From Escherichia coli (GTDB lineage: Bacteria; Pseudomonadota; Gammaproteobacteria; Enterobacterales; Enterobacteriaceae), in NCBI RefSeq assembly GCF_044324875.1, contig NZ_CP172185.1: a DNA stretch of 64,000 bases. One strand, written 5' to 3'. A program made the position numbers and the translations under genes. The notes beneath the pieces were generated by a model. The model saw only the letters and a program-made list of their open reading frames with translations, was not told where the DNA came from and searched no databases. This document shows positions 15,905 to 16,268 of the stretch, piece by piece (position 1 is the first letter of the stretch; each line of letters starts with the position of its first letter).

Positions 15905-15969
15905 AATCGTTACCTCGTTTAACGGTTTGGTTAGACGCCCTGCATGTGTGCCACCACTGCGGGGCGTTG

Positions 15970-16075
15970 TCGCTTGGTGCATCGCACCACTCATTTTTAA
16001 CCTATCAGTAAGTGAATCGCACTTCAAGCCTTTCTCTGAAATTTTTTTTGTGTATACTGAATCGCACCAACTTAG
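15970..16075. promoter_or_regulatory. Divergent promoter/operator region with three TG(C/A)ATCGCAC repeats and an extended -10 (TGTGTATACT)
   Basis: Three direct repeats between divergent Icd-like and RHH genes; approximate coordinates. Confidence 0.45.
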
Positions 16076-16088
16076 AGAGGATTCAGTA

Positions 16089-16268
16089 ATGGCAACAGGT
16101 TCAACAAATAATAAGTCGCAACAGTTAAATGCCAGATTCCCGCATGATGTTGTTGCAGACTTAGAAAAAAATTTAGATGAAGGTGAAAGCAAGGCGCAAT
16201 TTATAGTTACTGCCGTTAAAGGCGAGATCAAACGCCGCCAGCGCCGCAAGGCCAAAGAAGCGGAATAA
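16089..16268 (+). CDS. ribbon-helix-helix (Arc/MetJ-type) DNA-binding protein, candidate island repressor
   Basis: 59 aa; GAGAGG RBS; beta-strand then two helices pattern and basic C-terminal tail. Confidence 0.55.
   Translation: MATGSTNNKSQQLNARFPHDVVADLEKNLDEGESKAQFIVTAVKGEIKRRQRRKAKEAE

What the first reader, a model, noticed from the sequence alone, without database searches (positions are those of the whole stretch)
15905..16268. Divergent regulatory switch: ribbon-helix-helix protein gene facing the Icd-like/replication operon, with three TG(C/A)ATCGCAC operator-like repeats
Between the divergently transcribed Icd-like B gene and a 59-aa RHH-type DNA-binding protein gene lie three copies of GTGCATCGCAC / GTGAATCGCAC / CTGAATCGCAC, the last overlapping an extended -10 (TGTGTATACT) in front of the RHH gene. 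This is the layout of an autoregulated repressor controlling the early/replication operon, a different master-repressor logic from lambda-type CI.
Basis: partly seen in the sequence, partly recalled or inferred. Interest (0 to 1): 0.5.

Follow-up and report, generated by a model that had tools for sequence, protein, structure and literature searches.

The report
Satellite repressor switch with matched operators
A tiny, previously unnamed DNA-binding protein of a phage-parasitic island sits back-to-back with the island's cell-division-inhibitor/replication genes and has three matching binding sites over both promoters; it is probably the resident repressor that has not yet been identified for such islands in E. 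coli.

Summary
Three copies of (G/C)TG(C/A)ATCGCAC lie at 15977-87, 16012-22 and 16057-67, between an Icd-like gene (15707-15905, -) and a 59-aa gene (16089-16268, +). Chance predicts 0.44 exact copies in the whole 64 kb.

The window is not a lambda-like phage. It holds a capsid-forming PICI satellite inserted in tqsA.

In 61 related loci, GTG-N5-CAC sites sit at fixed offsets (-31, -76, about -100/-111) from the start codon. These loci include EcCICFT073, other PICIs and P4-like satellites from many Enterobacterales. The 5-bp core changes together with residues 11-17 of the predicted DNA-reading strand, in at least 12 classes. It does not change with AlpA.

One site overlaps the protein's own -10/+1. 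One fills the spacer of a conserved leftward sigma-70 promoter, and one lies just after that promoter's start.

So an autoregulated RHH repressor of the leftward operon is well supported by comparison, though untested. "Master repressor" is not supported: AlpA, a P1-type C4 RNA and a newly noticed antisense RNA also act on this operon.

The parts
15707..15905 (-). Icd-like gene B, first gene of the leftward operon
   Evidence: NCBIfam phage_ICD_like, 64.9 bits against a cut-off of 25. ORF read.
15863..15891 (+). Candidate promoter of the antisense RNA (-35 TTGTGT 15863-68, 17-nt spacer, -10 TATGCT 15886-91)
   Evidence: Read. A -10-like TAnnnT lies at a fixed distance from the RNA structure in the related loci. 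It lies inside coding sequence, so the conservation is ambiguous.
15896..15978 (+). Conserved structured RNA antisense to the Icd-like B ribosome-binding site. SL1 has the anti-Shine-Dalgarno CCUC in its loop. SL2 (15935-15967) is a terminator-type hairpin.
   Evidence: RNAalifold on 41 loci gives -29.4 kcal/mol, and 17 of 23 pairs show compensatory changes. On the + strand there are 109 G.U cells, which would be A.C on the - strand; consensus energy is -29.4 (+) against -5.4 (-). 96.8% of cells are paired, 0 of 500 shuffles reach this, and slid controls give 36-48%. The covariance model scores 70.1 bits here and finds copies on the + strand in all 20 satellite loci searched, including 15 not used to build it. 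No Rfam family matches.
15975..15989 (.). Operator O1: palindrome TGGTGC-ATC-GCACCA, core GTGCATCGCAC 15977-87, about +4 to +18 of the leftward promoter
   Evidence: The homologous site is present at -111, or at -98/-101, from the ATG in the related loci.
15999..16004 (-). -10 of leftward promoter P_L (TAGGTT on the - strand)
   Evidence: TAnnnT lies 17 nt from the -35 in nearly all loci. The scan tool calls the homologous promoter in EcCICFT073 (TTGACG-18-TATAGT, 10/12) and in L007 (TTGACA-17-TAAAGT, 10/12). In the window the match is weak (7/12).
16010..16024 (.). Operator O2: AAGTGAATCGCACTT, core 16012-22, filling the -35/-10 spacer of P_L
   Evidence: The offset of -76 from the ATG is nearly invariant across the related loci.
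16022..16027 (-). -35 of P_L (TTGAAG on the - strand)
   Evidence: Conserved as TTGA(A/C/G)G or TTGACA across the loci.
16053..16058 (+). -10 of rightward promoter P_R (TATACT), preceded by a T-run at 16040-49. There is no good -35.
   Evidence: TATAMT/TATAGT is conserved at the same offset in nearly all loci.
16057..16067 (.). Operator O3: CTGAATCGCAC, overlapping the -10 and the predicted +1 of P_R
   Evidence: The offset of -31 from the ATG is nearly invariant across the related loci.
16089..16268 (+). 59-aa YlcI/YnfO-family protein with a predicted ribbon-helix-helix fold (RBS GAGAGGA at 16075-81)
16278..16304 (+). Terminator-like hairpin directly after the RHH gene
   Evidence: 12-pair stem followed by ATTGTTTTAA.
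16326..16517 (+). 63-aa accessory ORF in the same direction, followed by a + strand terminator at 16552-16571
   Evidence: ORF, terminator. The only homologues are unnamed E. coli proteins. No Pfam, NCBIfam or PHROG family matches. It is absent from most related loci.
15472..15676 (-). P1-type immunity RNA unit inside the leftward operon: a1b1 targets 15627-15676, isrK-like hairpin plus U-run 15585-15663, C4 RNA 15472-15559
   Evidence: Rfam C4 72.3 bits (gathering score 45), c4-a1b1 44.0 bits (gathering score 46.7), isrK 35 bits. About 80% identical to the P1, P7 and D6 c4 region.
15247..15422 (-). Icd-like gene A, downstream of C4
   Evidence: NCBIfam phage_ICD_like, 51.1 bits.
16845..17033 (-). 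alpA (activator in EcCICFT073), with candidate PalpA at 17123->17095
   Evidence: PHROG 2790, excisionase/transcriptional regulator, 64.5 bits. 95% identical to EcCICFT073 AlpA. The promoter TTGCCA-17-CACAAT with an upstream TG is called identically in the window and in CFT073.

Best explanation
The 59-aa protein is a ribbon-helix-helix DNA-binding protein. It most likely recognises three 11-bp GTG-N5-CAC operators through its N-terminal beta-strand (residues about 10-17).

- O3 overlaps the -10 and start site of its own promoter P_R, so the protein limits its own synthesis.
- O2 fills the spacer between the -35 and -10 of the back-to-back leftward sigma-70 promoter P_L.
- O1 sits just after the P_L start site. 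In short-form loci it sits on the -10 itself.

Occupied operators would therefore keep RNA polymerase off the Icd-like/replication operon of this capsid-forming PICI while the island is quiescent. The protein and its operators behave as an exchangeable specificity (immunity-type) cassette, with at least 12 matched protein/operator classes. These are shuffled among PICIs, cfPICIs and P4-like satellites independently of integrase and AlpA type.

Shown here: the repeats, their fixed geometry, the conserved promoters, the protein/operator co-variation and the predicted fold.

Inferred: binding, repression, and how induction overcomes it. My guess at the last point is that AlpA-driven leftward transcription meets no predicted terminator and runs antisense through the RHH gene into the operon. 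This would silence the repressor and bypass P_L.
For: - **Repeats.** They are non-random: 4 exact copies against 0.44 expected, with three inside 91 bp.
- **Geometry.** In 61 loci, TG-N5-CA sites lie at -31, -76 and -111/-101/-98 from the ATG. 41 of 61 loci have at least 3 sites with the same core, against 1 of 12,200 shuffled regions.
- **Co-variation.** Locus pairs with identical residues 11-17 share the O2 core in 160 of 164 cases. Pairs with different residues share it in 49 of 782. Within a locus, O2 and O3 cores agree in 41 of 44 cases; between classes they agree in 82 of 1564.
- **AlpA dissociation.** The operator class ignores AlpA. Four loci with 95-100% identical AlpA carry four different classes, and two loci with 24% identical AlpA share one class.
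- **Promoter.** P_L is conserved with O2 in its spacer, and the scan tool calls it independently in EcCICFT073 and L007.
- **Distribution.** The same divergent pair lies between alpA and the primase gene in EcCICFT073 and other satellites.
- **Terminators.** Intrinsic terminators are predicted only on the + strand between the RHH cassette and alpA.
Against: - No experiment shows binding or repression.
- P_L in the window matches consensus poorly (7/12), and the scan tool does not call it there.
- AlpA overexpression alone induces EcCICFT073 (PMC6092414), so the RHH cannot be an insurmountable lock.
- If C4 RNA is processed from P_L transcripts, as in P1 and P4, full repression of P_L would remove that RNA. 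Repression may therefore be partial.
- Sequence-level RHH evidence is weak. There is no Pfam hit for the protein, no PDB sequence hit, and the hhalign probability is 17%.
- The fold rests on an artificial linked-dimer prediction. The monomer model was poor.
- The gene and its operators are tightly linked, so some co-variation is simply shared descent. The argument rests on concerted change of three separated sites within conserved flanks.
Confidence: 0.7

Rival explanations
1. The RHH only autoregulates its own small rightward unit, for example as the antitoxin of a two-gene toxin-antitoxin pair with the 63-aa ORF. On this view O1 and O2 are extra autoregulatory sites with no role at the leftward operon.
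For: RHH antitoxins that repress their own operon are common (general knowledge). A second small ORF follows in the window, L001, EcCICFT073 and L064. It shares a C-terminal motif between the window and L064.
Against: The second ORF is missing from most loci that keep the RHH gene and all three operators (L003-L007). A terminator-like hairpin separates the two genes. O2 sits exactly in the spacer of a conserved leftward promoter, and O1 sits downstream of it. That placement is hard to explain by autoregulation alone. The ORF matches no toxin family.
Confidence: 0.1
2. The RHH is an architectural or accessory protein in the manner of TraY, ParG or omega. It would bind repeated sites for replication, partition, excision or packaging rather than for transcription control.
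For: The best structural match is the relaxosome protein TraY. The K-12 family member ylcI lies divergent from the terminase gene nohD, in the cos region of prophage DLP12. Three dispersed sites 35-45 bp apart are unusual for a simple RHH operator.
Against: The island shows no relaxase or ParA gene. Iteron-like repeats that better fit an origin lie elsewhere, at 12662-12875 next to the helicase gene. The packaging genes lie 10 kb away. The sites coincide base-for-base with promoter elements of both divergent promoters in 61 loci.
Confidence: 0.08
3. The protein activates rather than represses the leftward promoter, as Mnt does at Pmnt or AmrZ does at some targets. It would still repress itself.
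For: P_L in the window is weak (7/12), and weak promoters often need activators. Some RHH proteins act in both ways (general knowledge; AmrZ, PMC3325190, listed).
Against: A site that fills the -35/-10 spacer, plus a site at +4 to +18 or on the -10, is a repressor geometry. In several loci P_L is near consensus (10/12) and would not need activation.
Confidence: 0.05
4. The repeats are bound by AlpA or a host factor, and the small ORF is incidental.
For: AlpA is the experimentally shown regulator of EcCICFT073 genes (PMC6092414).
Against: The operator core differs among loci whose AlpA proteins are 95-100% identical. It is shared by loci whose AlpA proteins are 24-28% identical. It tracks residues 11-17 of the RHH. 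A host factor could not follow at least 12 different cores.
Confidence: 0.02

Closest known systems
Phage P22 immI region (Arc and Mnt ribbon-helix-helix repressors, divergent Pant/Pmnt, sar antisense RNA). Own knowledge of the classical literature.
   Same: - Small RHH repressors whose operators lie inside and between two back-to-back promoters.
- One operator sits in the -35/-10 spacer.
- Autoregulation.
- A small cis-antisense RNA covers the ribosome-binding site of the first gene of the repressed operon.
   Different: - One protein instead of two.
- Three dispersed 11-bp GTG-N5-CAC sites 35-45 bp apart, instead of a single 21-bp operator bound by a tetramer.
- The controlled operon encodes Icd-like and replication genes of a satellite, not an antirepressor.
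- No detectable sequence-family membership.
Phage P1/P7 immI operon (C1-controlled promoter at Op51, c4 antisense RNA with a/b targets, icd, ant). Own knowledge.
   Same: The leftward operon carries a true homologue of c4 with a1b1 targets (about 80% DNA identity to P1; Rfam C4 72 bits). It also carries Icd-like genes. A protein repressor at the operon's promoter sits upstream of the RNA layer.
   Different: - The promoter-level repressor is an RHH with its own divergent gene, not C1.
- An extra Icd-like gene precedes c4.
- There is no ant gene.
- The RHH, operator and antisense segment has no DNA or protein match in 50,697 phage records.
SaPI / Gram-positive PICI master repressor Stl (Rpr), with divergent stl-str genes (PMC6092414)
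   Same: A resident regulator gene is transcribed divergently from the excision/replication operon of a phage satellite. It would keep the island quiescent.
   Different: - Stl is a larger helix-turn-helix protein that is released by binding a helper-phage protein.
- Here the protein is a 59-aa RHH, and no inducer interaction is known.
- The family's proven switch is the activator AlpA.
EcCICFT073 / EcCIEDL933 (Gram-negative PICI and capsid-forming PICI) AlpA-dependent induction (PMC6092414; bioRxiv 10.1101/2022.09.08.507074)
   Same: The window's island has the same layout: int, alpA, Icd-like genes, DUF4222, helicase/primase, SSB, and capsid and terminase genes. Its AlpA is 95% identical to that of EcCICFT073. 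EcCICFT073 carries the same RHH, operator and antisense module, in a different specificity class.
   Different: The published descriptions do not mention the small divergent gene or the operators. [quoted passage not shown]
Satellite phage P4 immunity (PLE, kil, CI RNA with seqA/seqC). Own knowledge; PMC10111431.
   Same: A small toxic first gene and a C4/CI-type RNA lie in the leftward early operon. Some P4-like satellites carry the same RHH/operator module (L003).
   Different: The protein has no match anywhere in the phage collection (tblastn). Whether P4 itself is among those records was not checked. P4 is described as using constitutive PLE plus RNA-mediated termination only.

Membership tests
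Ribbon-helix-helix (Arc/MetJ/CopG) superfamily | Beta-alpha-alpha protomer; two protomers intertwine and pair their N-terminal strands | tested here: met
Ribbon-helix-helix (Arc/MetJ/CopG) superfamily | G-x-S/T/N turn between the two helices | tested here: met
   G32-E33-S34 in the protein. E33 is invariant and G32 is present in at least 90% of 24 aligned homologues.
Ribbon-helix-helix (Arc/MetJ/CopG) superfamily | Match to a curated RHH sequence profile or to a solved RHH sequence | tested here: inconclusive
   There is no Pfam match for the protein even at E<=10. Six of 24 homologues give weak PSK_trans_fac hits (best 1.5e-3), which I take from memory to be an RHH-clan family. There is no PDB sequence hit. 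hhalign against Arc gives P 0.0014 and probability 17%.
Ribbon-helix-helix (Arc/MetJ/CopG) superfamily | Sequence-specific DNA binding through the beta-sheet | not testable with these tools
   The support is indirect. The variable residues cluster in the strand (11-17) and co-vary with the 5-bp operator core.
YlcI/YnfO family (NCBIfam NF041551) | Score above the curated cut-off | tested here: met
   63.3 bits against a cut-off of 30. RefSeq annotates the homologues with this name.
Capsid-forming PICI (cfPICI) | About 15-kb island with int, alpA and replication genes plus its own capsid, protease, portal, connector, HNH and terminase genes, and no tail or lysis genes | tested here: met
   ORFs and family matches across about 3.9-18.6 kb. 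A related annotated island lies in the same tqsA site.
Capsid-forming PICI (cfPICI) | Induction and transfer depend on a helper phage | not testable with these tools
   This needs experiments.
P1-type C4 antisense immunity | C4 RNA, its a1b1 targets, and a downstream icd gene | tested here: met
   C4 scores 72.3 bits (gathering score 45). The a1b1 targets score 44.0 bits, just under the gathering score of 46.7. The region is 80% identical to P1 c4. Icd-like A follows.
Type II toxin-antitoxin (RHH antitoxin) | A conserved toxin gene immediately downstream, in one operon | tested here: not met
   The downstream ORF is absent from most loci. It matches no family. A terminator-like hairpin lies between the two genes.
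SaPI Stl-type master repressor | Helix-turn-helix repressor that is released by a helper-phage protein | tested here: not met
   The fold is RHH, not HTH. Inducer binding cannot be tested here. The module may work like Stl but is not a member of that family.

The most novel reading that the evidence does not exclude
The YlcI/YnfO-type RHH is the resident repressor that has not been identified for Gram-negative PICIs, cfPICIs and many P4-like satellites. On this reading its at least 12 protein/operator classes are heteroimmunity groups that let several satellites share one cell. Together with a newly seen cis-antisense RNA and the C4 RNA it would form a three-layer lock on the Icd-like/replication operon. 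The committed step of induction would be removal of this repressor, either by AlpA-driven convergent read-through or by a helper-phage factor.
Probability: 0.3. Interest if true: 0.75.

Novelty: new variant of a known kind. Interest (0 to 1): 0.62.

Why it matters
Gram-negative PICIs spread virulence and defence genes, yet only an activator (AlpA) is known for them. The founding paper left open whether a repressor exists (PMC6092414).

The module described here is present in the model island EcCICFT073. It had been overlooked, probably because the gene is only 180 bp long and is annotated only as a 'YlcI/YnfO family protein'.

The comparison gives a concrete repressor candidate, exact operator sequences, two promoters and an antisense RNA. 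All of these can be tested in existing strains.

The natural set of matched protein/operator pairs differs mainly in seven residues and five base pairs. It also offers a compact system for studying RHH recognition and for building orthogonal repressors.

Tried and rejected
- **Sequence searches that gave nothing.** Pfam scans of the protein and of 24 homologues gave only weak hits. A PDB sequence search with the family profile gave nothing. tblastn of the protein against 50,697 phage records gave nothing.
- **Monomer AlphaFold model.** It was poor and showed no strand. I replaced it with a linked-dimer model.
- **Family libraries.** PHROG only returns 'unknown function'.
- **Literature.** Searches for YlcI/YnfO, RHH or CopG in PICIs, cfPICI induction and EcCICFT073 found no description of this module. 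Text searches of three of the satellite papers for these terms and the passages read from the other two showed none either.
- **C4 pairing.** RNAduplex of C4 against the leftward transcript gave strong but unspecific energies, so I dropped it in favour of the Rfam a1b1 hit.
- **AlpA as the binder of the repeats.** Rejected.
- **Toxin-antitoxin reading.** Rejected.
- **Origin or iteron reading.** Rejected, because better iterons lie at 12662-12875.
- **Fourth exact repeat.** The copy at 55005 lies inside an ORF that I read as housekeeping, and I take it as chance.
- **Co-resident satellites.** In the 8 genomes with two loci that I could see, 7 carry different classes. About 84% would differ by chance, so this test has no power.
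- **Hairpin extraction.** My first two scripts for extracting the hairpin used bad anchors and were redone.

Full report
**1. The observation**

The sequence between 15905 and 16089 holds three copies of an 11-mer:
- GTGCATCGCAC at 15977-87
- GTGAATCGCAC at 16012-22
- CTGAATCGCAC at 16057-67

The degenerate 10-mer TGMATCGCAC occurs exactly 4 times in the 64-kb window on both strands. Shuffles give 0.44 +/- 0.67, and none of 100 shuffles reaches 4. Three copies lie within 91 bp. The fourth lies inside an ORF that I read as a housekeeping gene.

Copy 1 is the centre of a perfect palindrome, TGGTGC-ATC-GCACCA. Copy 2 is a near-palindrome.

- An Icd-like gene runs leftward from 15905 (NCBIfam, 64.9 bits).
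- A 59-aa ORF runs rightward at 16089-16268.
- TATACT lies at 16053-58 and copy 3 overlaps it.
- The upstream TG is one base off the canonical extended -10 position.

**2. Context**

The region is part of an island of about 16 kb, not a phage. Reading leftward:

| Feature | Coordinates |
|---|---|
| integrase | 17408-18637 |
| alpA | 16845-17033 |
| rightward RHH cassette | 16089-16517 |
| Icd-like B, C4 RNA, Icd-like A and small ORFs | 14569-15905 |
| DUF4222 | 14276-14563 |
| RepA-type helicase | 12873-14279 |
| SSB | 11698-12108 |
| major capsid | 9130-10332 |
| protease | 8518-9090 |
| portal | 7299-8516 |
| connectors | 6671-7302 |
| HNH | 6231-6671 |
| TerS | 5585-5986 |
| TerL | 3940-5601 |

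There are no tail or lysis genes. This is the layout of a capsid-forming PICI (bioRxiv 10.1101/2022.09.08.507074). A related annotated island occupies the same site inside tqsA.

**3. The protein**

It scores 63.3 bits on NCBIfam YlcI_YnfO_N (cut-off 30). PHROG 949 lists it as 'unknown function'. It has no Pfam match and no PDB sequence match.

A monomer AlphaFold model was poor. RHH proteins fold only as dimers, so I joined two copies with a flexible linker and predicted that chain from a 29-sequence alignment. Both halves came out as strand 10-18, helix 19-27 and helix 35-59, with pLDDT about 92 and pTM 0.73.

- WYL1, AvtR and VirC2

Foldseek agrees. hhalign puts NKSQQLNARFPHDVVADL in register with Arc's SKMPQFNLRWPREVLDLV, though weakly (P 0.0014). 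I checked my recalled Arc sequence against the PDB first. A G-x-S turn separates the helices. The RHH call is therefore supported, but by prediction.

**4. Comparative test**

The divergent pair (YlcI-type gene rightward, Icd-like gene leftward) sits between alpA and the primase gene in:
- EcCICFT073
- other E. coli PICIs and cfPICIs
- a P4-like satellite with sid, psu and delta

A 363-bp query finds the region in 1161 of 5426 complete E. coli genomes. A scan of one genome per species returned 55 further loci. They come from Morganella, Proteus, Pectobacterium, Dickeya, Yersinia, Xenorhabdus, Photorhabdus, Serratia, Hafnia and others.

I analysed 61 loci (53 from that scan, 7 from E. coli, and the window). 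In them, TG-N5-CA sites lie at fixed offsets from the start codon: -31, -76, and -111 (or -101/-98). 41 of 61 loci have at least three sites with the same 5-nt core, allowing one mismatch and either orientation. Only 1 of 12,200 shuffled regions does.

The outer GTG and CAC are constant. The core changes with residues 11-17 of the protein:

| Residues 10-17 | Operator |
|---|---|
| SQQLNARF | GTGAATCGCAC |
| SQMTTVRI | GTGAAATACAC |
| SQALKARV | GTGTGGCCCAC |
| SQKLQARA | GTGGA(A/C)TCCAC |
| SQLTTVRV | GTGAAACACAC |
| SQS(L/V)TARI | GTGTCTTACAC |
| STQIASRV | GTGCTAACCAC |
| SLQ(V/L)SVRL | GTGAACACCAC |
| SRQKTARV | GTGACTCCCAC |
| SKKLEARV | GTGTCAGCCAC |

Further classes exist.

The numbers are:
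- Locus pairs with identical strand residues share the O2 core in 160 of 164 cases.
- Pairs with different residues share it in 49 of 782 cases.
- O2 and O3 agree within a locus in 41 of 44 cases.
- O2 and O3 agree across classes in 82 of 1564 cases.

The rest of the protein, notably GEIKRRQRRKAKE, is nearly invariant.

The gene and its sites are tightly linked, so co-descent contributes to these figures. However, three separated sites change in concert while the promoter elements between them stay fixed. That is the signature of a cognate protein/operator pair.

The class is independent of AlpA. The window, L001, EcCICFT073 and L064 have 95-100% identical AlpA proteins and four different classes. 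The window and the P4-like L003 share a class with 24% identical AlpA.

**5. Promoter geometry**

On the - strand, every locus reads TTGA(A/C/G)G (or TTGACA), then a 17-nt spacer made up largely of O2, then TAnnnT.
- In the window this is TTGAAG (16027->16022), spacer, TAGGTT (16004->15999).
- The scan tool independently calls the homologous promoter in EcCICFT073 (TTGACG-18-TATAGT, 10/12) and in L007 (TTGACA-17-TAAAGT).
- It does not call the window's weaker version.
- O1 then lies at about +4 to +18. In short-form loci it lies on the -10.

Rightward, TATACT is conserved after a T-run with no good -35. O3 covers its last bases and the predicted start. This is a repressor geometry at both promoters.

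**6. Other layers on the same operon**

*(a) C4 RNA.* Rfam finds a C4 antisense RNA at 15472-15559 (72 bits). Its a1b1 targets lie at 15627-15676 (44 bits, gathering score 46.7). An isrK-like hairpin with a U-run lies between Icd-like B and Icd-like A. This 190-bp unit is about 80% identical to c4 of P1, P7 and D6. It is the only part of 15240-16090 with any match in the phage collection.

*(b) A cis-antisense RNA.* A conserved structure at 15896-15978 works on the + strand, that is, antisense to the Icd-like ribosome-binding site.
- RNAalifold on 41 loci gives -29.4 kcal/mol, and 17 of 23 pairs show compensatory changes.
- The same alignment reversed gives -5.4 kcal/mol. The 109 G.U cells would become A.C mismatches.
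- 96.8% of cells pair, 0 of 500 shuffles reach this, and slid controls give 36-48%.
- The first hairpin displays CCUC, the complement of the Shine-Dalgarno sequence, in its loop.
- The second hairpin is terminator-like and ends just before O1.
- A covariance model finds copies on the + strand in all 20 satellite loci searched. Fifteen of these were not used to build the model.
- No Rfam family matches.
- A candidate promoter (TTGTGT-17-TATGCT, 15863-91) would start the RNA at the foot of the structure. It lies in coding sequence, so its conservation is ambiguous.

*(c) AlpA.* AlpA activates EcCICFT073 genes and alone suffices for induction. The same paper says that a global repressor is 'unclear' (PMC6092414).

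**7. Mechanism proposed**

Dimers of the RHH occupy O1-O3. They hold down P_R (autoregulation) and P_L (silencing of the Icd-like gene, replication and downstream genes). The antisense RNA and C4 catch leaky transcripts.

For induction I can only infer. Terminator-like hairpins between the RHH cassette and alpA are predicted on the + strand only: 16278-16304, 16552-16571, 16820-16838, and 16676-16697 by eye. AlpA-activated leftward transcription could therefore run antisense through the RHH gene and on into the operon. That would lower repressor synthesis and bypass P_L at the same time. A helper-phage anti-repressor is an alternative.

**8. Comparison and novelty**

The closest known analogues are:
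- P22 immI: Arc and Mnt RHH repressors in divergent promoters, plus sar antisense RNA.
- P1 immI: a repressor-controlled promoter, c4 and icd.

This module combines features of both inside satellites. It comes in many matched specificity classes.

I found no description of it in the searchable literature. One database label already says 'CopG family' for a homologue.

It is a new variant of a known kind. It is not proven to be a master repressor, and it is directly testable in EcCICFT073.

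Noticed in passing
window 15896-15978 (+): A conserved structured RNA lies antisense to the Icd-like B ribosome-binding site. Its first hairpin has an anti-Shine-Dalgarno loop, and its second is a terminator hairpin ending just before O1. Covariation is strong and specific to the + strand. It matches no Rfam family. Copies are present in all 20 satellite loci searched with a covariance model.
   Followed up: yes
window 15472-15676 (-): A P1-type c4 antisense RNA, its a1b1 targets and an isrK-like terminator hairpin lie between two Icd-like genes. 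The unit is about 80% identical to phage P1, P7 and D6 c4. It forms a second, RNA-level lock on the leftward operon.
   Followed up: partly
window 12662-12875: Three copies of TTTTGCTCCCCACTTTTT lie 83-85 bp apart, plus a 46-nt repeat pair, directly downstream of the RepA-type helicase gene. This is probably the island's replication origin.
   Followed up: no
window 16326-16517 (+); L064 13166-13393: A small ORF follows the RHH gene in some loci. It ends in a conserved KFALxxFVxKYPRRLKxxKNRPPG motif. Its only homologues are unnamed E. coli proteins and it matches no family. Its function is unknown.
   Followed up: partly
L064 13474-14053: A related cfPICI in the same tqsA site carries a second, different RHH-like gene (59 aa) with its own small partner ORF. 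It is preceded by a second copy of the antisense-RNA element and by a long palindrome (GTGTGTAATGTGTATATACACATAAACACATTATATGG). The arrangement looks like a tandem array of regulatory cassettes.
   Followed up: no
L005, L007 and several Xenorhabdus, Yersinia and Enterobacter loci: Long-form homologues (101-103 aa) carry an inserted helical segment of about 42 residues between GEIARRQ and the basic tail. Their operators keep the same positions.
   Followed up: no
L002 (EcCICFT073) about 8925-8950, and many 'short-form' loci: An extra palindrome, CCTTGA-N5-TCAAGG, lies just downstream of O1 in loci where O1 sits 22 bp from O2. The window's long-form arrangement lacks it. It could be a binding site for another factor or a 5' RNA hairpin.
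   Followed up: no
window 18835-19719 and about 3100-3300: The island interrupts tqsA (the AI-2 transporter gene). Only an N-terminally truncated ORF remains to the right of the integrase gene. The related locus L064 is annotated with tqsA fragments at both ends.
   Followed up: partly
window 12-135 (-): The Hfq-binding sRNA STnc490 (Rfam, 146 bits) lies at the very start of the window. It is unrelated to the island.
   Followed up: no
L063 (E. coli K-12 DLP12) 7252-7446: K-12 YlcI shows the same strand-helix pattern (TRNIRFPNQMIEQINIAL...). It lies divergent from the terminase gene nohD, in the cos region. The name-giving family members may therefore also be RHH DNA-binding proteins, in a different setting.
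   Followed up: partly
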